The translations under genes and the position numbers were made by a program. From an uncultured Francisellaceae bacterium (GTDB taxonomy: Bacteria; Pseudomonadota; Gammaproteobacteria; Francisellales; CACEW01): a stretch of DNA of 64,000 nucleotides. Below, piece after piece: positions 28,938 through 51,941 of this stretch. The stretch spans positions 2,341 through 66,340 of the forward strand of contig CAJQSL010000020.1 in the NCBI GenBank assembly GCA_905612315.1, read 5' to 3'. A model generated the notes under the pieces. The model was not told where the DNA came from, did no database searches, and worked only from the letters and a program-made list of their open reading frames with translations. Every line of letters starts with the position of its first letter. Position 1 is the stretch's first letter.

Positions 28938-29255
<318 letters not shown>

Positions 29256-33484: not shown

Positions 33485-33508
33485 CAAATTGTTTTTATGG
33501 TTTAAATT

Positions 33509-34366: not shown

Positions 34367-34383
34367 TTGAGAGTTTTTTTATT

Positions 34384-35240: not shown

Positions 35241-35303
35241 TTTAGGTGCTGGATTTTGCCTTGGGTTAGTGTTATTGTTTAAATCTTATTTTAGTGAGTG
35301 TAG

Positions 35304-36407
<1,104 letters not shown>

Positions 36408-36409
36408 TT

Positions 36410-39024: not shown

Positions 39025-39800
39025 TATTAGCTATACTTCAAGCTCGTTTCAATTCGACTAGATTACCAGGAAAGGTTTTAAAAAAAGTTAGAGCCAAAAC
39101 ATTATTAGAAATTCAAGTTTCTAGGCTTAATAAGTCTCATTATATTGACAAACTAGTTATTGCAACGAGTGAAGATATTTTAGATGATGCTATTGCAAAT
39201 ATGTGTTTTGATAATAATATTGAGTGCTTTAGGGGTAGTCTAGATGATGTTTTAGATAGATATTATCAATGCGCCAAGCAATATAACCCTACGCATGTTG
39301 TTAGGGTTACTGGTGATTGTCCTATTATAGATACTGAGGTTGTTGATCAGGTAATTAAGTCTCATTTAGATTCGCAAGCTGACTATACTTCTAATGCTTT
39401 AAAGCCTACATTTCCTGATGGCTTAGATATAGAAATTATGCAATATAATGTTCTATGCGAGATCTGGAGAAAATCGACTTTATTTTCCGAAAAAGAGCAT
39501 GTAACTCAGTATATTTATAATAATAAAAATTGCTTTAAATTAAATAGCTATACAAATAAAACAGATTACTCTGGGTTGAGGTGGACTGTAGATAACCCTG
39601 AAGATTTTAAAGTTGTGAGTTATATAATAGAAGAGCTATATTTTGAGAATCCTGATTTTAGTTGGAAAGAAGTATTGAGGCTATATGATAGCGAAAAACA
39701 TAAAAACATACTTAGCGAGAATATGGATTTTAAACGTAACAGCGGCATGCAAAGTTCAATTTTAAAAGATTTAGAGTTTAGTGAAAAGGTTGGTAATTAG
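39012..39800 (+). CDS. Cytidylyltransferase of the SpsF/acylneuraminate cytidylyltransferase family (candidate CMP-pseudaminate synthase PseF)
   Basis: 262 aa. Starts ILAILQARFNSTRLPGKVLKKV, then VVRVTGDCPIID. Confidence 0.65.
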   Translation: MAAMILAILQARFNSTRLPGKVLKKVRAKTLLEIQVSRLNKSHYIDKLVIATSEDILDDAIANMCFDNNIECFRGSLDDVLDRYYQCAKQYNPTHVVRVTGDCPIIDTEVVDQVIKSHLDSQADYTSNALKPTFPDGLDIEIMQYNVLCEIWRKSTLFSEKEHVTQYIYNNKNCFKLNSYTNKTDYSGLRWTVDNPEDFKVVSYIIEELYFENPDFSWKEVLRLYDSEKHKNILSENMDFKRNSGMQSSILKDLEFSEKVGN

Positions 39801-41105
39801 GTGAATATTATTAGTAATAGATATCAAAAATCTGAAGCTTTATTAAAGAGTGCTTTAGAGGTTATACCTTTGGGCAGTCAAACTTTTAGTAAGAGCTATA
39901 CTCAGTTTCCGCATGGAGTTTCTCCTTATTTTATTGATAGAGGGAAAGGGGCTTATGTTTGGGATGTTGATGGAAATAAATATTTAGATTTGGTTAATGG
40001 CTTAGCATCTGTATCTTTAGGGTACTGCGATGAACAAGTAGATAATGCTGTAAAAAAACAGATAGACAAAGGAGTTACTTTTTCTTTAGCAACAGAGTTA
40101 GAGCAAAAATTGGCCAGAAAATTAATTGAGCATATTCCAAGCGCACAAATGGTTCGTTTTGGTAAAAATGGCACTGATGCTACAAGTGGCGCTATTAGAG
40201 TTGCTAGGGCAGTTACTGGTAAGGATCATGTTTTGGTGTGTGGCTATCATGGCTGGCAAGATTGGTACATTGGGTCTACTACTAAAAATTTAGGTGTACC
40301 TGAGGCTACTAAGGAGTTAGCGCATCACTTTAAATATAATAATTTAGATAGCTTAGATGAGTTATTAAATAAATATAAAGATAATGTTGCTGCTGTTATT
40401 ATGGAACCGATGAACGTTGAGTTTCCTAAAGATAATTTTTTAGAAAATTGTAAAAAACTTGCGCATGATAATAACGCTTTGTTTATTTTTGATGAAACTG
40501 TAACTGGGTTTAGGTTTTCACTTGGGGGCGCGCAGAAACATTTTGGAGTCACTCCAGATTTAGCAACTTTTGGAAAAGGTATGGGTAATGGCTATCCAAT
40601 TAGTGCATTAGTTGGCAAAAAAGAATATATGCAAATAATGGAAGATGTGTTTCTTTCATCTACTTTTGGCGGTGAGTCGGTTTCTATTGCAGCTTCATTA
40701 GCAGTAATAAAAAAATTAGAGCAAACCAATGGCATTACACATATTCATAATATAGGAGAGCAAATTATAGAAAAAACCAAAAAGCTTATTGCTGCATATA
40801 ATTTGGATGATATTATTTCTGTACACGGACATCCTTGCTGGTCATTTTTAGTTATTAAAGATTATGCAAATTATTCTTCATGGGATATTAAAACTTTATT
40901 TATGCAGGAGTGTTTGCAGCGTGGGTTATTAACATTTTGTACGCATAATATTAGTTATGCCTATAGTCAAAATGAGGTTGATTATATTGAAAATATTTAT
41001 AGTGATGTTTTTCCTATTATAAAAAGTGCTATTGATAATAATAAACTTTACGATAGTTTATTGTGTGAGCCATTAAAGCAATTATTCAAGGTTCGTGAAA
41101 TATGA
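39801..41105 (+). CDS. Class III PLP aminotransferase (glutamate-1-semialdehyde 2,1-aminomutase-like)
   Basis: 434 aa with a GTG start. Contains FGKNGTDATSGAIRVARAVTG, IFDETVTGFRFSLGGAQ and TFGKGMGNGYP (PLP lysine). Confidence 0.75.
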   Translation: MNIISNRYQKSEALLKSALEVIPLGSQTFSKSYTQFPHGVSPYFIDRGKGAYVWDVDGNKYLDLVNGLASVSLGYCDEQVDNAVKKQIDKGVTFSLATELEQKLARKLIEHIPSAQMVRFGKNGTDATSGAIRVARAVTGKDHVLVCGYHGWQDWYIGSTTKNLGVPEATKELAHHFKYNNLDSLDELLNKYKDNVAAVIMEPMNVEFPKDNFLENCKKLAHDNNALFIFDETVTGFRFSLGGAQKHFGVTPDLATFGKGMGNGYPISALVGKKEYMQIMEDVFLSSTFGGESVSIAASLAVIKKLEQTNGITHIHNIGEQIIEKTKKLIAAYNLDDIISVHGHPCWSFLVIKDYANYSSWDIKTLFMQECLQRGLLTFCTHNISYAYSQNEVDYIENIYSDVFPIIKSAIDNNKLYDSLLCEPLKQLFKVREI

Positions 41106-42205
41106 GTATGAATATAATTATTCGTACTGATGCATCAAATATGATTGGCACTGGTCATGTTATGCGCTGTTTAACACTAGCTGAAAAATTAACTCAGAAT
41201 TATCAGGCAAAAATAACTTTTATATGTAGAGACTTACCAGGAAATTTATCAGAAGTTATAAAATTTAAAGGTTTCGGATTTAAGTTGTTAGCATTTTCGC
41301 CAGAGAATAAAGGACAATATTCCAAAACTCCTCCCAATGATGATTATGATAAATGGTTAGGAGTTAGATTAGAAGATGATGCCAAAGAAACTTTAGAAAA
41401 TGTTTTAGAATTTAATGAGAAAATAGATTTATTGATTATTGATCATTATGCATTAGATATTAAGTGGGAAAAAGTATTAAGATCAAAAGTTGAAAAAATA
41501 ATGGTTATAGATGATTTGGCTAATAGAAAGCATGATTGTGATATCATTTTAGATCATAATTTTTATTTAAATTTCGAATCCAGATACGATAAGTTAGTGC
41601 CACAAAGTTGTAAAAAGTTATTGGGATCAAAGCATGCTTTGATAAACTCCAAATTAAAACAAGTTAAAGAAAATAGGTCCCGAGCCGGCAAGGGGAATAA
41701 ACTTAATAAGGTGGAAACTGTTTTAGTATTTTTAGGCGGTGCAGATCCTAAAAACTTTACAGCTTTAGCTTTGGAACAGGCATTAAATTCTGAGCAGTTA
41801 AAAGATTGTATATTTAATGTTGTTTTAGGTAAAAATAACCCACATAAATTAGCACTAAAACAAAAATATGCGAAATATGATAATGTAGTATTTCATGTAC
41901 AGCCGAGTTATTATTACGGGTTATTAGCAAGGGCGGATTTGGCCATAGGTGCTGGTGGAGTATCCCAGCTTGAGAGGTGTTATGTTCAGTTGCCATCGAT
42001 TGTTATCCCTGCTGCTGATAATCAAAGAGAACTTGTAGAAAAGTTTGTAAGGGAAAAGTATATAATTAGTTCAAATAAACTCTTGCATCCAGTGGTCTTT
42101 GAAGTGGGAACTTGCTTGCGCTTTTTGGAGGTTGAGTTACTTCACTGCTATTCTATTTTTTCATCTAATAGGTGTCATAAAAATATTTCTATAAATTTGG
42201 AATAA
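41102..42205 (+). CDS. pseG: UDP-2,4-diacetamido-2,4,6-trideoxy-beta-L-altropyranose hydrolase
   Basis: 367 aa. Starts IIIRTDASNMIGTGHVMRCLTLAEKL, typical of PseG, with a GT-B-like fold and the GAGGVSQLERCYVQLP region. Confidence 0.7.
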   Translation: MSMNIIIRTDASNMIGTGHVMRCLTLAEKLTQNYQAKITFICRDLPGNLSEVIKFKGFGFKLLAFSPENKGQYSKTPPNDDYDKWLGVRLEDDAKETLENVLEFNEKIDLLIIDHYALDIKWEKVLRSKVEKIMVIDDLANRKHDCDIILDHNFYLNFESRYDKLVPQSCKKLLGSKHALINSKLKQVKENRSRAGKGNKLNKVETVLVFLGGADPKNFTALALEQALNSEQLKDCIFNVVLGKNNPHKLALKQKYAKYDNVVFHVQPSYYYGLLARADLAIGAGGVSQLERCYVQLPSIVIPAADNQRELVEKFVREKYIISSNKLLHPVVFEVGTCLRFLEVELLHCYSIFSSNRCHKNISINLE

Positions 42206-42234
42206 CTTTTTGCAACAGGACCATTATGTGTTAA

Positions 42235-43014
42235 TTAGGTATATGGATTCTTTTCAAGAAGTGCGTATTTATTATTTTTTAACATATCCATACCTGTATC
42301 AAATACGCCATTTATTTCGCAAACACAAACTGGTAATTTATCATCTATCATCATTGTCCTCATGCATCCATTTTTTATTGATTGATAATACAATGCTAAG
42401 TTATCAGTTCTTATATCCAAGTCATAATTTCTAACATTATATAAAAATGTATCTTCGATTCTCTTATCTTCATTAATTATCGCACCGGGAAATTTTTTTA
42501 TATATCTATAATCGACTTTAAAATACTGCTCTAGATAATGTAAAAATGTGGAAGGAGGACTGCCTGGATTTACAATAGGAAGATTTAAAAATAACCCTTT
42601 AGCTCTCATTTTTAATAATCTATCGAATATACTATCCTTACCAAATGCATCTGTAGAGATATTGTTTGTGATATCTTTGGCATGCTTGCCAATTGCAACA
42701 AAAGAAAAAATAGGGTGCAAAGATCTAAAGCTATCTTTATGATTAAGCATAAAGTTTGAGAAATAACCAACTACTGACATGGTTTTCTTAGAATCAAAAA
42801 TACCGGTTTGACAGAAGCTATAGGTAAAGCTAGGAACGATTAGTGTCCCATCTCTTCCAATGACACTGAAAATTGATTCCAATATATTGCTACAATGCTG
42901 CTTTAACTTTATATTATTATCACGGCATATGTCGGTATCTACATGCATTAAAACGACATCGTTTTTTTTAATTCCTAGTTCTGTGATTGCACTAATAATT
43001 TTCTTAATAATCAT
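42235..43014 (-). CDS. AAC(3)/YokD-family N-acyltransferase
   Basis: 259 aa. Contains ELGIKKNDVVLMHVDTD ... GTLIVPSFTYSF, as in the aminoglycoside 3-N-acetyltransferase family. Confidence 0.65.
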   Translation of the reverse strand: MIIKKIISAITELGIKKNDVVLMHVDTDICRDNNIKLKQHCSNILESIFSVIGRDGTLIVPSFTYSFCQTGIFDSKKTMSVVGYFSNFMLNHKDSFRSLHPIFSFVAIGKHAKDITNNISTDAFGKDSIFDRLLKMRAKGLFLNLPIVNPGSPPSTFLHYLEQYFKVDYRYIKKFPGAIINEDKRIEDTFLYNVRNYDLDIRTDNLALYYQSIKNGCMRTMMIDDKLPVCVCEINGVFDTGMDMLKNNKYALLEKNPYT

Positions 43015-43070
43015 TTTGTATAAACTCCATTAAGTTACAATAATAACTGATAAAACTAAAAGTAAGCTTG

Positions 43071-45491
43071 TTAAGCATAACACCATCGAATTAATTTTTC
43101 AGTTGGAAAACTATCATCCCAAGGGAGAGTAAAGTCAGCCATATGTCCAATTGGAGCAATTCGCGATACTCCTTTTTGTAAAAATAATTTTGCTATTTTA
43201 TCCCTTCTAAAACTTTTCAATTCTAATCCCACAACTTGATTGTCTGAAGATAGTAGATCTGCTATTTGCGATAAATCTTCTATTTCATGGACAAATATAG
43301 TTCTTCCATATACGGGATCATTTAATTTTACTTCTTTATCAAAGAATATTGTCCATTTCATATTGGTTGATGTAATAATGTTCTGAATTTTTTTATTTTG
43401 ATAAGCGCATAATCTTGCTGATTTGATTTTGTCAAAAGCATTAAAATCCTTTTGGTTACCAATAATTTGTATTGATATTTCTTCCATTCTGTTTTTTAAA
43501 AGAGACAAAAATGTTTCCGTAGATATTTTAGCTCCTTTCTCAATAAAAACATTATGAGAAGATGCGCATGCTTTCTGGTCAAAAATTGAACAATCAATAG
43601 CAATTGACCTTGCTATTCTATTTACTTTTCTTTCCAGTTCCATAGACTCTCTACCAATTGCACTCAACGATAACTTTGGTCCAAAGACTATATCTTCAGC
43701 ATTATATTTTTTAGGAAAATTAACAATTGATTCTACAGCTTCTTTTCCGCCCCAAGCTACTCTTACATCAGATATTTTTGATAAAGATTTATTATTTTCA
43801 GAATTTCTATCAACATATAATAAACAAATAGCATCAGTAATGTCTTTGCCTTTAATCTTCTTACCATTTAAAGTTTTTACATCAATCTCTGATATTATAT
43901 TTAACATTTTTTGCAAAACAGCCAAAGAATTTTTAGATATTTTTATAATATTGGCATTTTTACAGATAATTGAAATTAGAATAGATATGATTCCAAGCGT
44001 TGGAACATTACCAGCAACCCAGTGAGTTACAATCCCTCTTGGTAAGGCGATTAACTTTTTGTTATATTCAGTATTAAAAATAAATTCGTCTAGATGATGT
44101 TTTGAACCTCTCAAAGATAGATTAAGGTTTTGCTCAAAACTTCCTGATAGGATCCAATTTATGATAAAATCCATTCCCGCATATTTATATTCTATTAAAT
44201 CTGAATCAGCGCTCCAGATTTTTGCGGCCTTTTTAAATATACCGATAATTTCATCTGTTGATAATTTTGCTAATTTTTGTTGAGCAGTGTTTAGTTGAAG
44301 TTCAATTAGTTGCCAATTATCTATATGAGTGAATGTTTTTTTACTTTCAAAATAGTACAAAATTGCTTGTTCTTTATTTTCAATGAAGCTATTTTTTTCT
44401 AAAATTTTTGTAGCAATAACATCTCCACAACCTCTAATTTCTGCAGATTTTGCCCTGCCGATAACTTTAAAATAAGTACCTTTTCTACCGCATTTACAAT
44501 CGTCATTGCCTGTAATTTGTATTAAATCATCAGTGATGAGGGAAAACCCAGTATATGACCTAGGAACAAGGGATAAAAATTGTCCAACTCCAGTTTGGCC
44601 ATCTGGTAGAATATCATAGGAGTAAGGATTTCTAACTATTAAATGTGCGTGGTCTGGCACATGTTTAAATCCATATCTACATTCTGGATAAATAGTTCCC
44701 ATCTGCTCGGTAAAACCATAAATATCTATTATATTTTCTGGTTTTAGTTTAAAAACTTCACAAGTATCTTCTATAAATTTTTCCCTACTAACCTGCTGAT
44801 CAGCAAGTTTTTTCCATCCGCCTATATGAATTAGATAACTGTTTTCTGGAAGCGTTAAAGTAATATTGTTTTGTTTACAAAACTTAATTAAATATATATA
44901 AACCAGAAAGGTGAAACCGCATAATATTAATGGGTTTTTATTTTCACTGATTATGTCTTTAATTTTTTGAATATTTGCTTTATAAGAATTATCGCTATTT
45001 TCTAAAATAAAATCTGACTTAGTGGCAAAATTGGTAAAACCACCAATTGCGCCATGTCTCGCGCTGATATCAAAAGAATTAGTTTGCGGCGGAACATCAC
45101 ATATTAAAAAATGTCTTCTTTCTTTTCCAATAAAATTGGAAAGACTTGCTATCAAAGAGAATACTTGTCTTTTTGAGGTTTCGTTATCAATGTTAATGAC
45201 AGATGGCACTCCTGAGGTCGAGGAGGAAAGTAAAGATCTATGAATTTTTTTTGAACTAGTAAAACTTTTACCATTTTCTTTGAAGTATTGTACCGGAAGG
45301 AAGGGTGCTTTATCTAGAGAAGTAAAAAAATCTTGGTTTTGATATTCATTATCGATAATTTTTTTATATAAACTATTATTTTGGTAGTGATATAAGTGCT
45401 CTTCTTTAATATATGGCAATAATAACTCTTTTTTTTCTGATAATTTCAGAGTAAATGCTGAGGATTTTATATATTCAATTACTGGTTTCAT
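43071..45491 (-). CDS. Fusion of LuxE-like acyl-protein synthetase (N-terminal) and LuxC-like acyl-CoA/acyl-protein reductase (C-terminal)
   Basis: 806 aa. The N-terminal half has the LuxE-type LLPYIKEEHLYHYQNNSLYKKI. The C-terminal half has the LuxC signatures THWVAGNVPTLGIISILISIICKNANIIKISKNS and a candidate catalytic Cys in FDQKACASSHNVF. Confidence 0.65.
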   Translation of the reverse strand: MKPVIEYIKSSAFTLKLSEKKELLLPYIKEEHLYHYQNNSLYKKIIDNEYQNQDFFTSLDKAPFLPVQYFKENGKSFTSSKKIHRSLLSSSTSGVPSVINIDNETSKRQVFSLIASLSNFIGKERRHFLICDVPPQTNSFDISARHGAIGGFTNFATKSDFILENSDNSYKANIQKIKDIISENKNPLILCGFTFLVYIYLIKFCKQNNITLTLPENSYLIHIGGWKKLADQQVSREKFIEDTCEVFKLKPENIIDIYGFTEQMGTIYPECRYGFKHVPDHAHLIVRNPYSYDILPDGQTGVGQFLSLVPRSYTGFSLITDDLIQITGNDDCKCGRKGTYFKVIGRAKSAEIRGCGDVIATKILEKNSFIENKEQAILYYFESKKTFTHIDNWQLIELQLNTAQQKLAKLSTDEIIGIFKKAAKIWSADSDLIEYKYAGMDFIINWILSGSFEQNLNLSLRGSKHHLDEFIFNTEYNKKLIALPRGIVTHWVAGNVPTLGIISILISIICKNANIIKISKNSLAVLQKMLNIISEIDVKTLNGKKIKGKDITDAICLLYVDRNSENNKSLSKISDVRVAWGGKEAVESIVNFPKKYNAEDIVFGPKLSLSAIGRESMELERKVNRIARSIAIDCSIFDQKACASSHNVFIEKGAKISTETFLSLLKNRMEEISIQIIGNQKDFNAFDKIKSARLCAYQNKKIQNIITSTNMKWTIFFDKEVKLNDPVYGRTIFVHEIEDLSQIADLLSSDNQVVGLELKSFRRDKIAKLFLQKGVSRIAPIGHMADFTLPWDDSFPTEKLIRWCYA

Positions 45492-45492
45492 G

Positions 45493-46626
45493 TTAATAAG
45501 CTGCTTTAAGAATTTTCATAAAATCATCAGTGGTTAAGTCTTCAGGAAAGAATCGTGATAAGGTATCATTTTGTGCCAAATAAGCATATTTGGGGAAATC
45601 ATTAACATTTAGTTGTGTAAAACCTGATATTTTGTTTTTAATACCAATTGCTGGCAAAATTTCTTCATAAATTTCTGAAATAATATAGTCCAAATTTTTA
45701 TAACCTATTTTTAAAGCAAGGTCATTATACTTTTCTTTCAAGTTAGAATTTTTTTTGCTATGAGTTTTAATCACCTCGGGCAATAAAAGTCCAGTAGCCA
45801 CGCCATGAGGTATTGATGGAATATTATGAGCTAAAGCATGAGCGGGGCCAACAACATTTATATTTTGGACAATGCCAGCAAAATAAGCTCCAATTAGGGC
45901 CGGGTTTGCATAATCTTTATGGTTATTTTTTAGTTTTTGAAAAGCATTTAACAAATTTTGCAAAGCATGACAAACTAAATTGCCAGCCATGATGTTTTGC
46001 ATTTTACTTACGTAACCCTCTAGGCAATGAGATAGAGCATCCAGCATAGATGGAATTAGAATCTTTAGCGGTATGTTTTGTAATAAATTTGCATCTAAAA
46101 TTGCCAGGTCAGGTAAAAAATCGTGTGTAACAACAGGTATTTTCTTCAGTCCATCCTCACTTGTAATAATGGCACTAGAACTTGTCTCACTTCCTGTGCC
46201 GGCAGTAGTTGGTACCGCAACAAATCTAGCTTTTTTACGAAGGGGCGGCAAAGAAAATGGTATACTTAAGCGCTCATTATCAAAATTAGGATTTTCATAT
46301 AATGCCCAAGCTATTTTTGCTCCATCAATTACTGAGCCTCCTCCAATTGCAACAATCCAGTCTGGATTAAAATCTAGCAATTGACCAACACTTTCTTTAA
46401 TCTTTGATAGTTTCGGCTCTCCATGCCATTTCGGATTGAAGACTTTGCATTCAAATCTTTTTTTATTAGCAGTAATTTTGCTAATAGTTTCATATTCATC
46501 GCAACTTCTTTTAGTTGCAAAAATAGCAATTTTTCTGGCGGGTATTCTGGCGAGATAGGATAATCCTCCTTCTTGACATAAGGTTTGTTTGGCAGATATC
46601 AAAGTTGAGGTTGATAAATTTAACAT
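45493..46626 (-). CDS. Iron-containing alcohol dehydrogenase
   Basis: 377 aa. Has GGGSVIDGAK, TTAGTGSETS and His-rich metal-site regions (LSHCLEGY, AHALAHN). Confidence 0.8.
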   Translation of the reverse strand: MLNLSTSTLISAKQTLCQEGGLSYLARIPARKIAIFATKRSCDEYETISKITANKKRFECKVFNPKWHGEPKLSKIKESVGQLLDFNPDWIVAIGGGSVIDGAKIAWALYENPNFDNERLSIPFSLPPLRKKARFVAVPTTAGTGSETSSSAIITSEDGLKKIPVVTHDFLPDLAILDANLLQNIPLKILIPSMLDALSHCLEGYVSKMQNIMAGNLVCHALQNLLNAFQKLKNNHKDYANPALIGAYFAGIVQNINVVGPAHALAHNIPSIPHGVATGLLLPEVIKTHSKKNSNLKEKYNDLALKIGYKNLDYIISEIYEEILPAIGIKNKISGFTQLNVNDFPKYAYLAQNDTLSRFFPEDLTTDDFMKILKAAY

Positions 46627-48083
46627 TATATTCCTTGGATTATTTTCTTTACTTCAGAAGTTAGTGTTTTCCCAGTTTCTGATCTGGGAATGAAGTTAGC
46701 AAACATTATTTTTTTAGGGATGGCAAAATTTTCTAGATATTTTCTCAGTTCATTGATGATGAAATTCTCAGAAACGTTTTCTTGTCTTACAATCAAAGCC
46801 ATAGGAGCCTCTCCTAGAATTTTATCTTCTAAAGATATTACAGCAGTATCTATAATACCTTTAACTTTTAATAATGCAGCCTTTATTTCTTCAGAGGAAA
46901 TTTTTAAACCGCCAATATTAATTAGATCTTTTTTTCTACCATTAATAAATAAATACCCTGCTTTATCTATATATCCCAAATCGCCAGTTTTGAAATAATC
47001 ATTTTCAATATTGTTTGCTTTTTCATTCCAATATCCTGCAAATAGGTGATTACCACCTATACATATTTCACCATCAATAATTTTAACTTTGACATCTTGT
47101 GAGGTTGGTTTCCCAACGGATTTATAATATTCTTTTTTTTGGTCAGATAGAGTGATAAAAAATGAACGAGATGCTTCAGTTAGGCCATAATAAAACATTA
47201 TTCTAAGACCAGGGCAGTTGGTAATTAAGTCTTTAGTTATCTCTTCCGGTAGTTTTTCTGTATTAATAACAATATAATCTAGTTTACGGAGGGTGGAAAT
47301 TGTTTTATTTCTAAATCTTTCATTTAAAAGGATTTTGAGCATTGACGGGGTAAGTGCTGTGGCGTTGTAATTTTTATTAAAAGCTGCAAAAAATTTTTTT
47401 AAAGATTTAATTCCATCCGTAATATATACAGTGCCTCCACCTGAATGGGTACAATAAACATGACCTAGACCAAAATTATGATATATGGGTAAAGGGATAA
47501 CTTCTTTGTTATTTTGTGTGTAACCAATATAATTTTTAATATTATTCAATGCCTGGTTGACACAAGCGTGAGTTAATTTTACCCCTTTAGGTTTCCCAGT
47601 AGAGCCAGTAGTAAACATTATAGCAACCAGCTCCTGGGGATTAATATTAAATTCTTTTCTGGCTATAAATTTTTGACTAAATGGCGACAGAATATGAGCT
47701 AACTCATTATATTTACTAATTTTAATAATTTCTAAGTTTATAACTTTATCTAGATCTTTATCCGTGAAAAGTATTTTTGCCTTTAACTCACTTGAAAAAT
47801 ATATTGCTCTGTCTTGTTTTAAATCATTAGAAATTGGAACTGAAATGGCTCCTAAAAGAATAGTTGCATAGTGCAATACAATTTGTTGTGCAGAGTTTCC
47901 AAGGGCATTAATAATAATATCTTGTTTTTTTATTCCTTTATATGACAAAAATTGGGTTGCTGCATATACAATGTTTGCTAGTTTATCATAAGTAAAACTT
48001 TCTTCTTTATCTTGTAGAGCAATATTCTGGGCGCAACCCTCATTCAAGGCTTTTTTGAATATAGTAGCAATGAAGTTGTTCAT
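46626..48083 (-). CDS. AMP-dependent synthetase/ligase (adenylate-forming enzyme)
   Basis: 485 aa. Has the MFTTGSTGKPKGVKLTH AMP-binding motif, YGLTE, TGDLGYID and GRKKDLINIGG. Confidence 0.85.
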   Translation of the reverse strand: MNNFIATIFKKALNEGCAQNIALQDKEESFTYDKLANIVYAATQFLSYKGIKKQDIIINALGNSAQQIVLHYATILLGAISVPISNDLKQDRAIYFSSELKAKILFTDKDLDKVINLEIIKISKYNELAHILSPFSQKFIARKEFNINPQELVAIMFTTGSTGKPKGVKLTHACVNQALNNIKNYIGYTQNNKEVIPLPIYHNFGLGHVYCTHSGGGTVYITDGIKSLKKFFAAFNKNYNATALTPSMLKILLNERFRNKTISTLRKLDYIVINTEKLPEEITKDLITNCPGLRIMFYYGLTEASRSFFITLSDQKKEYYKSVGKPTSQDVKVKIIDGEICIGGNHLFAGYWNEKANNIENDYFKTGDLGYIDKAGYLFINGRKKDLINIGGLKISSEEIKAALLKVKGIIDTAVISLEDKILGEAPMALIVRQENVSENFIINELRKYLENFAIPKKIMFANFIPRSETGKTLTSEVKKIIQGI

Positions 48084-48304
48084 GCTTTCTCTTTTAGGAT
48101 TTCAACTATGTCACCAAATGTTTCCATTTCTAAAACTTCATCTATATCTAACCTAACCTCAAAATCTTTTTCTAAGGCAAGGATCAAGTTTTGATGTGCT
48201 AAAGAGTCCCACTCTGGGATATCACCTGGACCTAAGTCTTCTGTTATAATAGATGGGTTGATTTTTAAAGATTCTGCAATTGTTTTTTTTATTTTTTCTT
48301 TCAT
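48080..48304 (-). CDS. Acyl carrier protein
   Basis: 74 aa. Has the DSL phosphopantetheine attachment context (IPEWDSLAHQNLILALE). The stop overlaps the ligase start (ATGA). Confidence 0.8.
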   Translation of the reverse strand: MKEKIKKTIAESLKINPSIITEDLGPGDIPEWDSLAHQNLILALEKDFEVRLDIDEVLEMETFGDIVEILKEKA

Positions 48305-48560
48305 GATTTAAAATTAATTCCGATTTTTTAGTATTCAATAATTTTAACGTTCAGCCAATCAAATAACAAGTTATAGATCGATTCTGTCAAACCAAATTAA
48401 AAATGAGGAGCGTCAAGCTTTTTTGGAGAAAAAATTTGAGCACACTTTAGTATTAATAATTTTGAATACTATTTTTTACAAGTCTTTAGTTTAAATTTGT
48501 ATGCCTTGAGTATGATAATTTTTATTATTACAATACCTTTTTCTTCATGGTAAGATCAGC

Positions 48561-49637
48561 GTGAGCGAATTAATATTAGATAAAATGGCGGTAAATATGA
48601 AGATACTAGATGTTTCTAAAATTAATAAACCTTTTATCATTGCTGAAATGTCAGGCAATCATAATCAGTCTTTAGATAGAGCATTAAAAATTGTAGAAGA
48701 GGCGGCAAAAGCTGGTGCCGATGCGATAAAATTGCAAACTTATACCGCTGACACCATGACTTTAAATATTGATAAAGATGAATTTAAAGTAACAGATAAA
48801 GATAGCTTATGGTATGGCAGGCATTTATATGAGCTGTACGAAGAAGCTCATACTCCTTGGGAGTGGCACAAACCTATTTTTGATAAAGCCAAAGAGTTAG
48901 GTATTATGGCTTTTAGTACTCCTTTTGATCATACAGCGGTAGATTTTCTAGAAGACTTAAATGTACCATTTTATAAAATAGCATCGTTTGAGAATACTGA
49001 TGTTAATTTAATTCGTAAAGTTGCAAGCACTGGTAAGCCAGTTATTATATCTACTGGTATGGCTAGTTTAGAAGATCTGCAATTAATGGTAAATACTATT
49101 AGAGATGCGGGTTGTGAAAACTTTGTAATGTTAAAATGCACTAGTGCATATCCTGCCTCTGCGTTAGATGCAAATATAAGAACAATTCCACATATGTCCC
49201 AAATGTTTGATTGTCCTGTTGGGATATCAGATCATACAATGGGTATTGGAGTACCAATTGCAGCTGTAGCTTTAGGAGCTATGGTAATTGAAAAGCATTT
49301 CTGTTTATCTCGTGCAGAAGGTGGGGTTGATTCTGCTTTTTCTTTAGAGCCACATGAACTTAAATTATTAGTTGAAGAGACAAACAGAGCCTATCAAGCG
49401 CTTGGGAAAGTAAAATATCAAACATCAGCTATCGAAGAAAAAAGCAAGCAGCATAGACGTTCTATTTATTTTGTAAAAGATATGAAAGCTGGGGATATGA
49501 TTACTGAGAACTGCCTAAGATGTATTCGGCCTGGATTCGGATTGCCTCCTAAATATTGGGATAAGCTGATTAACTCTCTAGTTAAAGTAGATGTTTCATT
49601 AGGAACTCCGGCATCCTTAAATTTAGTTCTCGAGTGA
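48561..49637 (+). CDS. pseI: Pseudaminic acid synthase
   Basis: 358 aa. Contains FIIAEMSGNHNQSLDRALKIVEEAAKAGADAIKLQTYTADTMT and a C-terminal SAF domain. Close in pattern to Campylobacter PseI. The start is uncertain (GTG at 48561 or a nearby ATG). Confidence 0.8.
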   Translation: MSELILDKMAVNMKILDVSKINKPFIIAEMSGNHNQSLDRALKIVEEAAKAGADAIKLQTYTADTMTLNIDKDEFKVTDKDSLWYGRHLYELYEEAHTPWEWHKPIFDKAKELGIMAFSTPFDHTAVDFLEDLNVPFYKIASFENTDVNLIRKVASTGKPVIISTGMASLEDLQLMVNTIRDAGCENFVMLKCTSAYPASALDANIRTIPHMSQMFDCPVGISDHTMGIGVPIAAVALGAMVIEKHFCLSRAEGGVDSAFSLEPHELKLLVEETNRAYQALGKVKYQTSAIEEKSKQHRRSIYFVKDMKAGDMITENCLRCIRPGFGLPPKYWDKLINSLVKVDVSLGTPASLNLVLE

Positions 49638-49647
49638 GAGCAGATCT

Positions 49648-50886
49648 ATGAGTCAAGTAAAAAAAGGTATATTACTGCTTTTTTTGGCACTATCTACTGT
49701 GGGAAATATACCTTTGCACGGCGGAACTACCCAGCTAAATCAACTCGTTTTGGCAATTTTTATTTTTTTAAGTTTATTTTTGGTTAAACGTTATCCTAGT
49801 AAATTTTTGGTGTTTTTTTTATTTACTTTGAGTTTGATTTTAGTTGGGTCACTAAAAGGTATCGGTAATATATGGCTTTTGGGAGACCTATCTAAATTGT
49901 TGTTATTATTGGGGGCTATGGCCGCATTTGTTGTGGTCTTAGATGATATGGAAAGTTTTTACTTTTTTGTTAAATATGCTTCAATTTTATTTATTTTGAC
50001 TATTGTTTTTGGTTTTTTGATGAATCCTCATTTAAGTATTGCAGAGCATAGGTTAGTTAATCTTAATATTTCTGGGGGTGGTGGGCCTTTGGGTTGGGCT
50101 GCTGCTGTTTTGTTTTCACTATATGGAGTAGTAGTTAACTATATTAAAGAAAAAAGAAAAGTTAAAAACTTGTTATTATTTGCGCTAACTTTAATTATAT
50201 TTGCCTCTTTATCTAGAAATGCCATATTGTTTTATATTATATATTTGATTTTTATGCGTAGAAAAGATTTATGGTATATTGCCTTATTAAGTTGTATCTT
50301 TTCCGTTTTATTATTTTTATGCCTTATATTATTTAAGTTTGTTCCATTTTCTGTGGTGACAGCTAATGCTTATCGTTTTGTGCCCTCTGGGATGTCAGAG
50401 ATGTTAGGTTTGCCGCATATTGATTGGCCGTTGTCTGGTAGAAGCCTTATTTGGAGTGGTTTTATTTTAAAATATATAGAAAGTAATTTTACAACTTTAA
50501 TTTTTGGTTATGGAATTGGCTCAGTATCTATTCATATTCCTGCTGCTGATTATTTTTCACGGGATCCACATAATTTTTTTATATCTATTCTGATGACATT
50601 TGGTTTGTTAGGTTTAGTATCCAGTGTTTTATTTTGGAGTTGTTCTTTGTATTATTTTAAAGCATTAAAAAATAGGGAAAGCTTTAGCGTGTTAGTCGCT
50701 TTGCTTTTTGGCCTTATGTTTAATAGTATTTGGCGTTTTTCAAGTATTATATGGTTAAATGCACTTTTATTTATATTTCCATATTTGTGGTTGTCTGTGA
50801 AAAAAGAATTTTATGGATCTTCTAATATGCAAGATTCTATAGTTGCTCCAAGATTATCTATGGATATGAAGGATGATAATTCATGA
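49648..50886 (+). CDS. wzy: O-antigen polymerase/ligase-family membrane protein (Wzy-like)
   Basis: 412 aa, about 10-12 TMs with a larger loop before the last helices. Polysaccharide-locus context with wzx. Confidence 0.55.
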   Translation: MSQVKKGILLLFLALSTVGNIPLHGGTTQLNQLVLAIFIFLSLFLVKRYPSKFLVFFLFTLSLILVGSLKGIGNIWLLGDLSKLLLLLGAMAAFVVVLDDMESFYFFVKYASILFILTIVFGFLMNPHLSIAEHRLVNLNISGGGGPLGWAAAVLFSLYGVVVNYIKEKRKVKNLLLFALTLIIFASLSRNAILFYIIYLIFMRRKDLWYIALLSCIFSVLLFLCLILFKFVPFSVVTANAYRFVPSGMSEMLGLPHIDWPLSGRSLIWSGFILKYIESNFTTLIFGYGIGSVSIHIPAADYFSRDPHNFFISILMTFGLLGLVSSVLFWSCSLYYFKALKNRESFSVLVALLFGLMFNSIWRFSSIIWLNALLFIFPYLWLSVKKEFYGSSNMQDSIVAPRLSMDMKDDNS

Positions 50887-51941
50887 GGGTTTTACATTTA
50901 TTTTTAGTTAGCTCACCTCTGCAGACAATTACAGTATCTAATATACTTAAGCAATATTTAGGTAAACCTGATGAGGATATTTGTCTGTTTTGTGAGGGCG
51001 ACAGGTTAAAATCGCAAGTTGATGAATCTTTGTGGACTAAGGTTATCTATGGTAATGATACTAGGCCTTCAATTAATAAAGCAAAGAAGAGTATTAGGAC
51101 TAATTTAAATCTTTTAAAGCCTTTAGTTGATTCATATGAAAAGATTATTTTATATGTAGGTGATCTTTATTGGTTATTTAATAATACAATGTTTTCTATG
51201 TTGAAAAACAGAAAACTTAAGTATTTTAAGTGTAATTTGTTTGATGAGGGTTTGGTTTTATATAGACATGATAAAGAGAAGTATATAAATTTAAAAAAAC
51301 AGTTTGTAAAGTTTATCTGGCAAAGGTTACATGGTTTTTCGGCAAGTTTATTATGGAGGGATCCTATACAAATCCCATGTTGGATTAACCGTATTTATTG
51401 TTATCACCCGGGGTTATTAAAAGCTCCAGATTGGGTTGAGGTTAAAGATCTAGATGTTAATTATATTTCAGATTATTTGGAGGAGCAAAGAAGCTCTTTG
51501 CCTGAATTGCCTGTTATAGGGGAACGAACATTATTATATTTATCACAACCTTATTATCGTGTTATGCCCTTAGATAAATGGAAGCAAGTTATAACATCGC
51601 TTAAAAACTATGCCAGAACTTTAGGTGTTAAGGATATTTATGTAAAACCGCATGATGGGGATACTAGGGAGTGGATTAATTATTTGCTTGAAGAGGGTGG
51701 TTTTAAATTATTTACTAAAGTGCGCTCAGGTGTGGCAATTGAATTGCTTGCTTCAGAATTATCGTTTGACTATGTGGTAAGCACGGGTAGTTCGGCCTTA
51801 TTTAATTTAAAGTTATTCGGTTATAATGGTAAGGTTATTTCTTACGGGCTTGAAAAATCAGCAATAAGCCGTAAGATTAAAAAATTACATGAGGCATCAT
51901 TTAGAATATATAAACACGTTGGAGTGGAGACTGTTGACTAA
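50883..51941 (+). CDS. GT52-like (sialyltransferase-family) glycosyltransferase, candidate pseudaminyltransferase
   Basis: 352 aa. Segments resemble Neisseria Lst-type GT52: CNLFDEGLVLY (compare FDDGTGNL), LLYLSQPYY, IYVKPHDGD (compare YVAPHPRQ) and VVSTGSSALFNL. Recalled from memory, not searched. Confidence 0.4.
   Translation: MRVLHLFLVSSPLQTITVSNILKQYLGKPDEDICLFCEGDRLKSQVDESLWTKVIYGNDTRPSINKAKKSIRTNLNLLKPLVDSYEKIILYVGDLYWLFNNTMFSMLKNRKLKYFKCNLFDEGLVLYRHDKEKYINLKKQFVKFIWQRLHGFSASLLWRDPIQIPCWINRIYCYHPGLLKAPDWVEVKDLDVNYISDYLEEQRSSLPELPVIGERTLLYLSQPYYRVMPLDKWKQVITSLKNYARTLGVKDIYVKPHDGDTREWINYLLEEGGFKLFTKVRSGVAIELLASELSFDYVVSTGSSALFNLKLFGYNGKVISYGLEKSAISRKIKKLHEASFRIYKHVGVETVD

What the first reader, a model, noticed from the sequence alone, without database searches (positions are those of the whole stretch)
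42235..48304. Reverse-oriented carrier-protein acyl-tailoring operon embedded in the pseudaminic acid genes
Five tightly packed minus-strand genes sit between pseG and pseI. The ACP/ligase pair overlaps by 4 nt, ligase/ADH by 1 nt, and there is a 1-nt gap before the next gene.

The five are ACP, an adenylate-forming ligase, an Fe-alcohol dehydrogenase, a LuxE-LuxC fusion, and an AAC(3)/YokD-like N-acyltransferase.

This set could load a carboxylic acid onto a carrier, reduce a carboxyl group to an aldehyde or alcohol, and transfer the product to an amino group. Pseudaminic acid has two acylatable amines (N5, N7). The module plausibly installs a non-acetyl, possibly hydroxylated or reduced, N-acyl group.

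I recall lux-like and ACP genes being noted next to pse genes in some flagellin glycosylation islands, without a defined function. That recollection needs verification.
Basis: partly seen in the sequence, partly recalled or inferred. Interest (0 to 1): 0.75.

Follow-up and report, generated by a model that had tools for sequence, protein, structure and literature searches.

The report
Hydroxyacyl-carrier operon inside pseudaminic acid genes
Five back-to-front genes inside a sugar-coat gene cluster of an uncultured gammaproteobacterium look like the cholera bacterium's "tetronate" genes joined to an unusual transferase, and probably put a small hydroxylated acyl group, not acetyl, on pseudaminic acid.

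Summary
Five intact, translationally coupled minus-strand genes lie between pseG and pseI: ACP, AMP-ligase, Fe-alcohol dehydrogenase, a LuxE-LuxC fusion, and an AAC(3)-fold protein. All catalytic motifs are present.

The first four genes match, in order, architecture and size, the Vibrio cholerae O1 wbe/rfb K-L-M-N genes (VC0248-0251). Those genes are assigned to 3-deoxy-L-glycero-tetronate (2,4-dihydroxybutanoyl) N-acylation of perosamine. That pathway was proposed in 1995, is supported by mutants, and has never been reconstituted.

The same four-gene cassette, in the same order, occurs in most of 80 genomes examined, from many bacterial phyla. It is almost always in amino-sugar or nonulosonic-acid loci.

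The fifth gene belongs to a small AAC(3)-fold subfamily that sits beside an ACP and alternative acyl-ACP supply modules:
- FkbH, which would give glyceryl-ACP
- FabD/KASIII/KR
- this cassette

It usually also sits beside a Cj1295-like DUF4910 protein. I therefore read it as an acyl-ACP-dependent N-acyltransferase, not a resistance enzyme.

The exact acyl group and the acceptor nitrogen (N5 or N7) are inferred only. Lux-like genes next to pse genes were already listed for Aeromonas and Enterobacteriaceae, where they were read as "fatty acid" genes. I rate this a new variant of a known but biochemically untested kind, of moderate interest.

The parts
48080..48304 (-). Dedicated acyl carrier protein (74 aa), RfbK/WbeK-like
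   Evidence: Pfam PP-binding 2.9e-5. NCBIfam ACP models reach 4e-9. The phosphopantetheine serine, Ser34, lies in WDSLAH. It is 44-62% identical to the ACPs of the same cassette elsewhere. It is 32-40% identical to the small proteins upstream of AAC3-like genes in L090 and L091.
46626..48083 (-). Adenylate-forming acid-ACP (or CoA) ligase (485 aa), in the RfbL/WbeL position
   Evidence: AMP-binding 1.1e-51 plus AMP-binding_C. Core motifs are intact: TTGSTGKPKG 158-167, YYGLTE 298-303, KTGDLG 365-370, and the catalytic Lys in SETGKT 468-473. The best solved relatives are oxalyl-/oxalate-CoA ligases, FadD13, MenE and MatB. Their scores are too close to name a substrate. This ligase belongs to the smaller of two ligase clades found in such cassettes, 23 loci against 54.
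45493..46626 (-). Iron-type alcohol dehydrogenase (377 aa), in the RfbM/WbeM position
   Evidence: Fe-ADH 1.4e-31 plus ADH_Fe_C 1.3e-22. The NAD motif GGGS (95-98) and the metal ligands in LDALSH (195-200) and HALAHNIPSIPHG (263-275) are present. The nearest solved relatives are AdhE ADH domains and FucO.
43071..45491 (-). LuxE-LuxC fusion (806 aa): ATP-dependent carboxylate activation plus NAD(P)H thioester reduction to an aldehyde; in the RfbN/WbeN position
   Evidence: LuxE 8.6e-66 (residues 9-363) and LuxC 3.8e-68 (residues 407-803). It matches PDB 7xc6 chains E (LuxE) and A (LuxC). Cys355 (RGCGD) aligns with the Cys near the LuxE C-terminus (chain residue 364). Cys642 (DQKACASS) aligns with the LuxC DQQAC cysteine. 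Both Cys residues and the SSSTSG loop are invariant in 18 homologues. Fused homologues are found in 229 GTDB species.
42235..43014 (-). AAC(3)-fold N-acyltransferase (259 aa), predicted to use acyl-ACP; same kind as the gene annotated Cj1296/7 in C. jejuni
   Evidence: Antibiotic_NAT 4.8e-25. It falls far below the NCBIfam AAC(3) resistance cut-off (57 bits against 270). The invariant residues T156, H159 and E162 lie in TFLHYLEQ and align with the TxxHxxE motif of AAC(3)-IVa and YokD. The subfamily profile also hits FrbF. Relatives always lie next to an ACP and an acyl-supply module.
48305..48560 (.). 256-bp divergent intergenic region between the ACP gene and pseI; the only sizeable non-coding stretch, and the presumed site of divergent promoters
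   Evidence: Sequence read. The consensus promoter scan is no better than chance (39 sites found, 36.9 expected), so no promoter is shown.
35346..37597 (+). pseB and pseC (UDP-GlcNAc 4,6-dehydratase and 4-aminotransferase); these make the free 4-amine that becomes N7 of Pse
   Evidence: TIGR03589 PseB scores 555 bits against a cut-off of 408. TIGR03588 PseC scores 540 bits against 424.
37613..38143 (+). GNAT (Acetyltransf_3) in the pseH position; PseH status uncertain
   Evidence: Acetyltransf_3 9e-21. TIGR03585 PseH scores only 40 bits against a cut-off of 93. There is no BLAST similarity to the PseH domain of the V. aquimaris PseG-PseH fusion.
38140..41105 (+). Aldo-keto reductase, SpsF-like cytidylyltransferase (the presumed CMP-Pse synthetase) and a class-III aminotransferase
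   Evidence: Aldo_ket_red 5e-18, CTP_transf_3 1e-29, Aminotran_3 2e-57. PRK06209 (GSA-aminomutase-like) scores 412 bits. The AKR plus class-III aminotransferase pair also occurs in Aeromonas group I islands that lack lux-like genes.
41102..42205 (+). pseG (UDP-sugar hydrolase), convergent with the AAC3-like gene; 29 nt separate the two stop codons
   Evidence: TIGR03590 PseG scores 269 bits against a cut-off of 154. Sequence read.
48561..49637 (+). pseI (pseudaminic acid synthase)
   Evidence: TIGR03586 PseI scores 506 bits against a cut-off of 340, plus NeuB and SAF domains.
49648..51941 (+). Wzy-like polymerase and an alpha-2,8-polysialyltransferase-like protein (candidate Pse transferase)
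   Evidence: Wzy_C 1e-5 (below the Pfam cut-off) and A-2_8-polyST 2.3e-16. A polyST-like gene also lies beside the cassette in V. vulnificus and in Vibrio sp. SCSIO 43137.

Best explanation
The operon is a carrier-protein-based module that makes a short, hydroxylated acyl group and transfers it to an amino sugar, most probably pseudaminic acid or its UDP-4-amino precursor.

Proposed steps:
1. The LuxE domain adenylates a carboxylate of a small di-acid and passes the acyl group through its own Cys355 to Cys642 of the LuxC domain. By analogy with V. cholerae O1, the di-acid would be L-malate.
2. The LuxC domain reduces the thioester with NAD(P)H to an aldehyde.
3. The Fe-ADH reduces the aldehyde to a primary alcohol. 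In the V. cholerae case the product would be 2,4-dihydroxybutanoate, which is 3-deoxy-L-glycero-tetronate.
4. The AMP-ligase loads the other carboxylate onto Ser34 of the dedicated ACP. This could happen before or after the reductions; the data do not fix the order.
5. The AAC(3)-fold enzyme uses the acyl-ACP, in place of acetyl-CoA, to N-acylate the sugar amine.

No Cj1295-like deacetylase lies in the window. The simplest acceptor is therefore the free 4-amine made by PseC, which becomes N7 of Pse. The alternative is N5 after deacetylation by an enzyme encoded elsewhere.

Shown here: gene content, intact catalytic motifs, the conserved gene order across phyla, the glycan-locus context, and the pairing of AAC3-like genes with ACPs.

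Inferred: the substrate, the product, the order of the steps, and the acceptor.
For: (1) Domains and catalytic residues are intact.

(2) The four-gene set and its order match V. cholerae O1.
- VC0248-VC0252 are assigned to tetronate biosynthesis.
- WbeL (VC0249) is a 471-aa protein with a putative ATP-binding domain, called a putative CoA ligase in PMC12208996.
- WbeM (VC0250) is an Fe-ADH of 1125 nt.
- Mutations in each are linked to loss or alteration of the O1 antigen, or to phage resistance (PMC3441752, PMC9915646).
- RfbL is said to activate 2,4-dihydroxybutanoic acid onto CoA or onto the carrier RfbK (PMC12208996 citing Morona 1995).
- The Vibrio cassettes fetched here have 76/472-479/374-375/825-827-aa products in that order.

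(3) The order ACP-ligase-FeADH-LuxEC is conserved in most of 80 GTDB loci from many phyla. Recurrent neighbours, by number of loci:
- DegT aminotransferases, 25
- NeuB-type synthases, 17
- PglD-like N-acyltransferases, 33
- KASIII, 33
- SDRs, 34

(4) The closest relatives (64% and 45% identity) keep all five genes in the same order. V. aquimaris has cassette, AAC3-like, DUF4910, then pseB-C-F-G/H-I in one row.

(5) AAC3-like genes elsewhere follow an ACP together with a different acyl-supply module. One is an FkbH-domain protein (252 bits), which would load glycerate. Another is FabD+KASIII+KR. This argues that acyl-ACP is the donor.

(6) C. jejuni has the pair Cj1295 (aminopeptidase-like) and Cj1296/7 ('aminoglycoside N3'-acetyltransferase') right after pseB/C. 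Cj1295 is needed for the 5-N-(2,3-di-O-methylglyceroyl) form of Pse (PMC3068675, PMC3025981).

(7) A. piscicola AH-3 carries ACP/FabG/ligase/LuxE/LuxC next to pseH and bears a 376.14-Da Pse derivative. Replacing one acetyl of Pse5Ac7Ac with a C4H6O3 acyl gives 376.148 Da.
Against: - No V. cholerae sequence could be aligned here. Similarity to the Vibrio cassettes fetched is moderate: LuxEC 35-36%, FeADH 36-44%, ACP 44-54%, ligase only 26-28%.
- The window's ligase falls in a different clade from the Vibrio-type ligases. The acid may therefore differ; succinate, malonate, oxalate or a sugar acid are all possible.
- The tetronate pathway itself has never been reconstituted.
- The fifth gene is not what follows the cassette in other Vibrio loci. 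There it is a 345-363-aa protein with no family match, plus a polysaccharide deacetylase.
- A GNAT in the pseH position could already acetylate the 4-amine, and no deacetylase partner was found in 64 kb. How a free amine is provided is therefore unclear.
- A second DegT/GNAT pair at 55644-57327 offers another possible acceptor.
- No AAC(3)-family enzyme has, to my knowledge, been shown to use acyl-ACP.
Confidence: 0.68

Rival explanations
1. The module is a lux-type fatty acid reductase set. It channels long-chain fatty acids into a fatty aldehyde or alcohol and yields a lipid-bearing 'liposugar'. This is how the Aeromonas and Enterobacteriaceae flagellin-island papers read such genes.
For: Pfam names LuxE and LuxC. 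The ligase hits 'long-chain-fatty-acid--CoA ligase' models. Both island papers give this reading.
Against: - The scores are far below the NCBIfam LuxC and LuxE equivalog cut-offs (108 against 750; 103 against 550).
- There is no luxD and no luxAB.
- The same gene set in V. cholerae O1 goes with a C4 dihydroxy acyl group.
- The Aeromonas Pse derivative is only 60 Da heavier than Pse5Ac7Ac.
- An Fe-ADH next to an N-acyltransferase makes little sense for a lipid tail.
Confidence: 0.06
2. The module is real but serves another amino sugar of the same polysaccharide. One candidate is the product of the second DegT aminotransferase at 56221-57327, by analogy with perosamine in V. cholerae. Its position between pseG and pseI would then be incidental.
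For: Across the 80 loci the cassette sits more often beside DegT/PglD-type genes (25-33 loci) than beside NeuB (17 loci). A second GNAT+DegT pair lies about 7 kb downstream.
Against: - The AAC3-like subfamily in particular goes with NeuB-type loci and with the Cj1295-like protein, which is linked to Pse N5 modification.
- In V. aquimaris, the cassette, the AAC3-like gene and DUF4910 directly precede pseBCFGHI.
- The second DegT already has its own GNAT.
Confidence: 0.14
3. The LuxC aldehyde is not only reduced. The neighbouring class-III aminotransferase (39801-41105) transaminates it, giving an omega-amino acyl group such as 4-amino-2-hydroxybutanoyl, as in butirosin.
For: A class-III aminotransferase lies two genes away, and another lies next to DUF4910 and the cassette in L083. 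The LysW pathway shows that carrier-bound semialdehydes can be transaminated (established knowledge).
Against: - The AKR plus class-III aminotransferase pair occurs in Aeromonas group I Pse islands that have no lux-like genes.
- None of the 80 cassette loci showed a homologue of this aminotransferase.
- The Fe-ADH is translationally coupled within the cassette.
Confidence: 0.07
4. The 259-aa protein is an ordinary aminoglycoside 3-N-acetyltransferase (a resistance gene), unrelated to the four upstream genes.
For: Antibiotic_NAT Pfam hit, and weak hits to AAC(3) structures.
Against: - It scores 57 bits against the 270-bit AAC_3 cut-off.
- The same five-gene order is kept at 64% and 45% identity.
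- The subfamily always sits beside an ACP and glycan genes.
- FrbF shows that the fold also serves biosynthesis.
Confidence: 0.02

Closest known systems
Vibrio cholerae O1 tetronate genes rfb/wbe K-L-M-N-O (VC0248-VC0252)
   Same: Both have an ACP, an AMP-ligase (471 aa in V. cholerae), an Fe-alcohol dehydrogenase (374 aa) and a LuxE-LuxC two-domain protein (825 aa), in that order. Both sit inside a surface-polysaccharide locus. In V. cholerae the genes are assigned to making a hydroxylated C4 acyl group that N-acylates an amino sugar.
   Different: - The acceptor there is perosamine; here it is presumably pseudaminic acid.
- The fifth gene here is an AAC(3)-fold protein. VC0252 could not be examined.
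- The window's ligase belongs to a different clade from the Vibrio-type ligases.
- The block is inverted relative to its locus.
Aeromonas group II and Enterobacteriaceae flagellin glycosylation islands (ACP, FabG, AMP-ligase, LuxE, LuxC beside pse genes)
   Same: Carrier protein, ligase, and LuxE/LuxC-type activation and reduction are encoded next to pse genes. The function is undefined.
   Different: - LuxE and LuxC are separate proteins there.
- An SDR (FabG-like) takes the place of the Fe-ADH.
- No AAC3-like gene is reported.
- The setting is flagellar, with maf genes, whereas the window is a Wzy-type polysaccharide locus.
Campylobacter jejuni Cj1295 / Cj1296-7 (with ACP and FabH genes nearby, from my recollection of that locus)
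   Same: An AAC(3)-annotated transferase sits directly after pseB/pseC. It lies in a region linked to replacement of a Pse N-acetyl by a hydroxy-acid-derived acyl group, 2,3-di-O-methylglyceroyl.
   Different: - The aminopeptidase-like partner (Cj1295, DUF4910/DUF2172) is absent from the window.
- The acyl supply is different.
- No sequence comparison with Cj1296/7 was possible.
LuxCDE fatty acid reductase of luminous bacteria (PDB 7xc6)
   Same: The same two folds are present, and both acyl-relay cysteines are conserved. The chemistry is the same: acid plus ATP plus NADPH gives an aldehyde.
   Different: - LuxE and LuxC are fused here.
- There is no LuxD and no luciferase.
- The scores are far below the equivalog cut-offs.
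- The substrate is predicted to be short and polar.
Butirosin AHBA side-chain system (BtrI/J/K/O/V/H) and LysW amino-group carrier pathways (from established knowledge, not tested here)
   Same: The logic is shared. A small acid is tailored while bound to, or before being bound to, a dedicated carrier protein. It is then transferred as an N-acyl group to an amino sugar (butirosin). In the LysW pathway, a carrier-bound carboxylate is activated and reduced to a semialdehyde.
   Different: The enzyme families are unrelated: ATP-grasp ligase, kinase plus dehydrogenase, and a BtrH-type transferase.

Membership tests
WbeKLMN(O)-type tetronate N-acyl module (V. cholerae O1) | Operon with ACP, AMP-ligase, Fe-ADH and a LuxE-LuxC fusion, in that order | tested here: met
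   for the window. Sizes and annotations of VC0249-0251 come from PMC3441752 and PMC9915646. The same order is seen in the Vibrio loci L018, L087, L093 and L094.
WbeKLMN(O)-type tetronate N-acyl module (V. cholerae O1) | Located in a surface-polysaccharide locus that makes an amino sugar | tested here: met
   PseB/C/G/I, Wzy-like, Bac_transf, Wzz-like and glycosyltransferase genes surround it.
WbeKLMN(O)-type tetronate N-acyl module (V. cholerae O1) | Sequence orthology to VC0248-VC0251 | tested here: inconclusive
   No V. cholerae sequence was available. Against other Vibrio cassettes: LuxEC 35-36%, FeADH 36-44%, ACP 44-54%, ligase 26-28%. The LuxEC proteins form one group, but the window's ligase is in the other of two ligase clades.
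WbeKLMN(O)-type tetronate N-acyl module (V. cholerae O1) | Product is 3-deoxy-L-glycero-tetronyl (2,4-dihydroxybutanoyl) amide | not testable with these tools
   This needs MS/NMR of the glycan or in-vitro assays. There is only an indirect mass match in Aeromonas.
LuxCDE bioluminescence fatty acid reductase | Equivalog-level similarity to LuxC and LuxE | tested here: not met
   NF052251 LuxC scores 108 bits against a cut-off of 750. NF052244 LuxE scores 103 bits against 550.
LuxCDE bioluminescence fatty acid reductase | Conserved acyl-relay cysteines and nucleotide motifs | tested here: met
   C355 and C642 align with the LuxE and LuxC cysteines of 7xc6 and are invariant in 18 homologues.
LuxCDE bioluminescence fatty acid reductase | Accompanied by luxD and luxAB | tested here: not met
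   The Pfam and NCBIfam scans of the ORFs from 20890 to 62519 found no such genes.
AAC(3) aminoglycoside resistance acetyltransferases | Score above the NCBIfam AAC_3 family cut-off | tested here: not met
   57 bits against 270. Subtype models score 24-39 bits against cut-offs of 420-560.
AAC(3) aminoglycoside resistance acetyltransferases | Antibiotic_NAT fold with the TxxHxxE catalytic motif | tested here: met
   Pfam 4.8e-25. T156, H159 and E162 are invariant and align with AAC(3)-IVa and YokD.
Cj1295 / Cj1296-7-type Pse N-acyl exchange pair | AAC(3)-type transferase encoded within the pse genes | tested here: met
   The annotation of Cj1296/7 is taken from PMC3025981. No sequence comparison was made.
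Cj1295 / Cj1296-7-type Pse N-acyl exchange pair | Adjacent aminopeptidase-like DUF4910/DUF2172 protein | tested here: not met
   tblastn and a DUF4910 profile search of all six frames of the window found nothing. The protein is present in L048, L053, L081, L083, L090-L093.

The most novel reading that the evidence does not exclude
The AAC(3)-fold protein is the founding example of an acyl-ACP-dependent amino-sugar N-acyltransferase. It works as a plug-in partner for at least three interchangeable acyl-ACP supply modules:
- the WbeKLMN-like reductive cassette
- FkbH, giving glyceryl-ACP
- FabD/KASIII/KR

Together with the Cj1295-like deacetylase, this would account for much of the unexplained N-acyl diversity of nonulosonic acids. 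It would also identify the 'fatty acid' genes of Aeromonas and enterobacterial flagellin islands as makers of a tetronyl-type group, namely the 376-Da Pse.

In the loci where a split transketolase and SDRs replace the Fe-ADH, the LuxC aldehyde may instead be extended by two carbons. That would give terminal-triol acyl groups of the kind seen on Treponema denticola flagellin.
Probability: 0.4. Interest if true: 0.65.

Novelty: new variant of a known kind. Interest (0 to 1): 0.45.

Why it matters
Nonulosonic acids such as pseudaminic acid decorate flagella, capsules and LPS. Their N-acyl groups determine antigenicity and phage or immune recognition. The enzymes that install non-acetyl groups are largely unknown.

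This locus ties together three observations that the papers read here treat separately:
- the never-reconstituted V. cholerae O1 tetronate genes
- the unexplained lux-like genes in flagellin glycosylation islands
- the Cj1295/Cj1296 region of C. jejuni

It gives each a concrete, testable chemistry.

It also points to a natural route to 2,4-dihydroxybutyrate-type acids. And it cautions against reading Antibiotic_NAT hits in glycan loci as resistance genes.

Tried and rejected
- **Promoter and terminator scan of 41900-48700.** The counts equal the shuffled expectation (39 against 36.9; 3 against 2.7). It is uninformative.
- **Source lookup for the window's own LuxE-LuxC protein.** It is not on record.
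- **Organism.** rpoB is only 62-64% identical to any named genus (Fangia, Facilibium, Cysteiniphilum, Caedibacter, Haliea). No known glycan structure can therefore be linked to this organism.
- **Ligase substrate from solved structures.** Oxalate, malonate, OSB, fatty-acid and NRPS adenylation enzymes all score within a few orders of magnitude of each other. I rejected this as a way to name the acid.
- **Deacetylase partner in the window.** I searched for the Cj1295-like DUF4910 protein, the Polysacc_deac_1 protein, the 345-aa protein and the VOC protein seen in other loci. None was found.
- **The 345-363-aa proteins downstream of Vibrio cassettes.** They are not AAC3-like and match no Pfam or NCBIfam family.
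- **Hidden AAC3-like genes in the 89 loci.** A profile search found none beyond the 9 already known.
- **Plasmid collection.** It holds only distant, mostly unfused LuxE/LuxC homologues of at most 35% identity.
- **Literature.** No open paper combines 'dihydroxybut*' with pseudaminic acid. My recollection of a dihydroxybutanoyl-Pse in Kribbella could not be verified, and I do not use it.
- **Structure prediction.** I did not run it. The folds are already clear from sequence, and the tools cannot assess ligand pockets.
- **The 'liposugar' reading and the resistance-gene reading.** I considered both and rejected them (see rival explanations).

Full report
**1. Observation**

The ORF list reproduces the five minus-strand reading frames at the stated coordinates:
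- 42235-43014, 259 aa
- 43071-45491, 806 aa
- 45493-46626, 377 aa
- 46626-48083, 485 aa
- 48080-48304, 74 aa

A 56-nt spacer precedes the last gene.

Every other ORF of at least 100 aa from 6882 to the end of the window is on the + strand, apart from a few short ones nested inside + strand genes. The block is therefore a clean inversion inside a long co-directional locus. GC content (0.30-0.32) matches the surroundings, and only the GC skew flips.

Pfam and NCBIfam confirm every domain: PP-binding; AMP-binding plus AMP-binding_C; Fe-ADH plus ADH_Fe_C; LuxE (residues 9-363) and LuxC (residues 407-803) in one chain; and Antibiotic_NAT.

The flanks are bona fide PseG and PseI, above the TIGRFAM cut-offs. 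PseB and PseC lie upstream. Between them are a GNAT, an aldo-keto reductase, an SpsF-like cytidylyltransferase and a class-III aminotransferase.

**2. Are the proteins functional?**

The translations carry the expected motifs:
- ACP: Ser34 in WDSLAH.
- Ligase: TTGSTGKPKG, YYGLTE, KTGDLG, and the catalytic Lys in SETGKT.
- Fe-ADH: GGGS, and the Asp/His metal ligands in LDALSH and HALAHNIPSIPHG.
- LuxE domain: SSSTSG and YGFTEQMG.

Against the solved LuxC-LuxE complex 7xc6, Cys355 (RGCGD) aligns with the cysteine near the LuxE C-terminus. Cys642 (DQKACASS) aligns with the LuxC DQQAC cysteine. From my knowledge of the Lux system, these are the two acyl-relay cysteines. Both are invariant in 18 diverse homologues.

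In the AAC3-like protein, T156, H159 and E162 (TFLHYLEQ) are invariant across 20 subfamily members. They align with the TxxHxxE motif of AAC(3)-IVa and YokD. The profile also hits FrbF, a biosynthetic member of the fold.

The protein scores 57 bits against the 270-bit AAC_3 resistance cut-off. It should not be called a resistance gene.

**3. Setting**

rpoB at 12088-16242 places the window in an uncultured gammaproteobacterium. It is 62-64% identical to the nearest named genera; closer relatives are known only from metagenomes.

Downstream of rpoBC lies one large surface-polysaccharide locus. It contains:
- an initiating transferase, a Wzz-like protein and glycosyltransferases
- GtrA-like proteins and methyltransferases
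- a Wzy-like protein and a polysialyltransferase-like protein
- a second GNAT+DegT pair

No flagellar or maf genes were seen. This is more likely an O-antigen or capsule locus than a flagellin island.

**4. Relatives**

The LuxE-LuxC fusion is common. There are 707 hits in the protein collection, the closest at 64% identity. Fused relatives occur in 229 GTDB species.

In the 80 retrievable loci, tblastn with the window's proteins shows ACP, ligase, Fe-ADH and LuxEC in the same order and spacing almost everywhere. The carriers include Proteobacteria, Bacteroidota, Firmicutes, Verrucomicrobia, Planctomycetes, Nitrospirae and Spirochaetes.

I clustered all neighbouring ORFs. The recurrent partners, by number of loci, are:
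- FabG-like SDRs, 34
- KASIII, 33
- PglD-like hexapeptide N-acyltransferases, 33
- DegT aminotransferases, 25
- NeuB-type synthases, 17
- a split transketolase, 17 (Bacteroidales-type loci, which lack an adjacent Fe-ADH)
- VOC proteins, 14
- a 345-aa protein with no family match, plus a polysaccharide deacetylase, 10 (nonulosonic-acid clusters, including V. vulnificus and V. fortis)
- AAC3-like, 9
- DUF4910/DUF2172, 6 (next to an AAC3-like gene wherever the contig extends that far)

The two closest relatives (64% and 45% identity) keep all five genes in the window's order and add a DUF4910 protein.

Vibrio aquimaris, a cultured species, has the following in one row: cassette, a divergent AAC3-like gene (E 9e-36 to the subfamily profile), DUF4910, pseB, pseC, pseF, pseG/H, pseI.

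**5. The known counterpart**

Aeromonas group II and many enterobacterial flagellin islands carry ACP, FabG, AMP-ligase, LuxE and LuxC next to pse genes. Those papers read them as 'fatty acid' genes and guessed at a liposugar.

There is a closer and older counterpart that those two papers do not mention in the passages I read: the V. cholerae O1 wbe/rfb region.
- VC0248-VC0252 are assigned to tetronate biosynthesis.
- WbeL (VC0249) is 471 aa with a putative ATP-binding domain.
- WbeM (VC0250, 1125 nt) is an iron alcohol dehydrogenase.
- Deleting wbeL abolishes the O1 antigen, and mutations in wbeM and wbeN were found in phage-resistant isolates.

[quoted passage not shown] A recent paper, citing Morona et al. 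1995 (Gene 166:19), describes RfbL as activating that acid onto CoA or onto the carrier RfbK.

The Vibrio cassettes fetched here have products of 76, 472-479, 374-375 and 825-827 aa. These agree with the published sizes for VC0249-VC0251.

By architecture and order, the window's first four genes are therefore a WbeKLMN-type module. Orthology is not shown. The window's ligase falls in the smaller of two ligase clades, not the Vibrio one.

**6. The fifth gene**

Relatives of the AAC3-like protein are few (23 hits). Their contexts are telling.
- In L092 the gene follows FabD, KASIII, ACP and a ketoreductase. It precedes DUF4910 and NeuB.
- In L090 and L091 it follows a 544-552-aa protein and a 74-78-aa protein.
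- The large protein of L090 is an FkbH-domain protein (TIGR01686, 252 bits). By established knowledge, FkbH loads a glyceryl unit onto an ACP.
- The small proteins are homologous to the window's ACP.

One transferase family thus sits behind three different acyl-ACP supply modules. The simplest reading is that it takes its acyl group from the ACP.

C. jejuni provides partial experimental support. Cj1295 is aminopeptidase-like, the same kind as DUF4910/DUF2172. It is required for the 5-N-(2,3-di-O-methylglyceroyl) form of Pse and was proposed to remove the N5 acetyl. The neighbouring gene Cj1296/7 is annotated as an aminoglycoside N3'-acetyltransferase.

**7. Mechanism**

I propose that LuxE-LuxC and the Fe-ADH turn one carboxyl group of a small di-acid into a primary alcohol. 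The ligase and ACP carry the other carboxyl. The AAC3-like enzyme then transfers the hydroxyacyl group to an amine of the Pse pathway.

If the acid is L-malate, as in the V. cholerae scheme, the product is a 2,4-dihydroxybutanoyl amide.

One external clue fits. A. piscicola AH-3 has the lux-like module and carries a Pse derivative of 376.14 Da plus an unknown 102-Da moiety. Pse5Ac7Ac with one acetyl replaced by C4H6O3 computes to 376.148 Da, and C4H6O3 is 102.03 Da. This is arithmetic only, not proof. O-methylglyceroyl is isobaric.

The order of the steps is open: free acid first, or ACP-bound.

The acceptor is also open. The window lacks the DUF4910 partner, which favours the PseC-generated 4-amine (future N7). 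But a GNAT sits in the pseH position, with PseH model score 40 against a cut-off of 93.

**8. A side inference**

In the loci that lack an adjacent Fe-ADH, a split transketolase and SDRs sit next to the ACP, ligase and LuxEC genes. A transketolase adds a two-carbon glycolaldehyde unit to an aldehyde. Ketoreduction would then give a terminal triol.

A four-carbon semialdehyde extended this way would give a 2-hydroxy-4,5,6-trihydroxyhexanoyl skeleton. The Treponema denticola flagellin sugar carries a 2-methoxy-4,5,6-trihydroxyhexanoyl group. T. parvum has DUF4910, AAC3-like, VOC and the cassette next to NeuB.

This is speculation. It suggests that the LuxC aldehyde is a branch point.

**9. Verdict**

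The system is not categorically new. It is a variant of the V. cholerae tetronate module, with a different acceptor sugar and a different, AAC(3)-fold, transferase. That module is widespread but has never been characterised biochemically.

The main added value is threefold:
- linking three literatures
- re-reading the 'fatty acid' genes of flagellin islands
- the proposal that this AAC(3)-fold subfamily uses acyl-ACP

Noticed in passing
window 24949-29239 and 31315-35605: A 4,291-bp direct repeat at 99.77% identity. Each copy holds a 711-aa protein with no family match, a GT2, a 153-aa ORF, a GtrA-like protein and the first ~260 nt of pseB. Copy 1 therefore ends in a 5' pseB fragment. A 639-aa ORF with a nucleotidyltransferase domain (29355-31274) lies between the copies. 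This could be a real segmental duplication or an assembly artefact.
   Followed up: partly
window 22760-23941: A RuBisCO-large-chain-like protein (PF00016 8e-32, plus the N-terminal domain) sits inside the polysaccharide locus. A 108-aa ORF and a nucleotidyltransferase follow it. This is an unusual neighbour for glycan genes. It may be a RuBisCO-like protein acting on a sugar phosphate.
   Followed up: no
window 38140-41105: An aldo-keto reductase and a class-III (GSA-aminomutase-like, PRK06209 412 bits) aminotransferase flank an SpsF-like cytidylyltransferase that gave no PseF-model hit. The same AKR plus class-III aminotransferase pair is listed in Aeromonas group I Pse islands. Homologues of the cytidylyltransferase and the aminotransferase (47% and 46% identity) occur in L083. 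Their role in Pse chemistry is unknown.
   Followed up: partly
L090 7111-11036; L091 5852-9732: An FkbH-domain protein (TIGR01686 252 bits, scanned in L090; L091 has a similar 544-aa protein in the same position), a small ACP, an AAC3-like gene and DUF4910 lie together in marine metagenome glycan loci; NeuB is nearby in L091. I predict this is an N-glyceroyl module for an amino sugar or nonulosonic acid.
   Followed up: partly
L035, L040, L044, L049, L051, L056-L060, L063, L066, L069, L073, L075, L076 (Bacteroidales-type loci): The cassette lacks an adjacent Fe-ADH. Instead it is preceded by a split transketolase (N and C halves), one or two SDRs, and often KASIII. This suggests a different fate for the LuxC aldehyde.
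   Followed up: partly
L018, L087, L094 and seven other loci, just downstream of LuxEC: A conserved 345-363-aa protein with no Pfam or NCBIfam match, followed by a Polysacc_deac_1 deacetylase, lies in legionaminic-type clusters. It is a candidate for an alternative acyltransferase/deacetylase pair. It is not related to the AAC3-like subfamily.
   Followed up: partly
window 50883-51941: An alpha-2,8-polysialyltransferase-like protein (PF07388 2.3e-16) lies next to a Wzy-like gene. It is a likely Pse transferase. Similar genes lie beside the cassette in V. vulnificus and in Vibrio sp. SCSIO 43137.
   Followed up: no
window 48561-48590: The pseI ORF is listed from GTG 48561, but the PseI model aligns only from residue 23, and an ATG lies at about 48586. 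The true start may be downstream, which would lengthen the divergent intergenic region.
   Followed up: no
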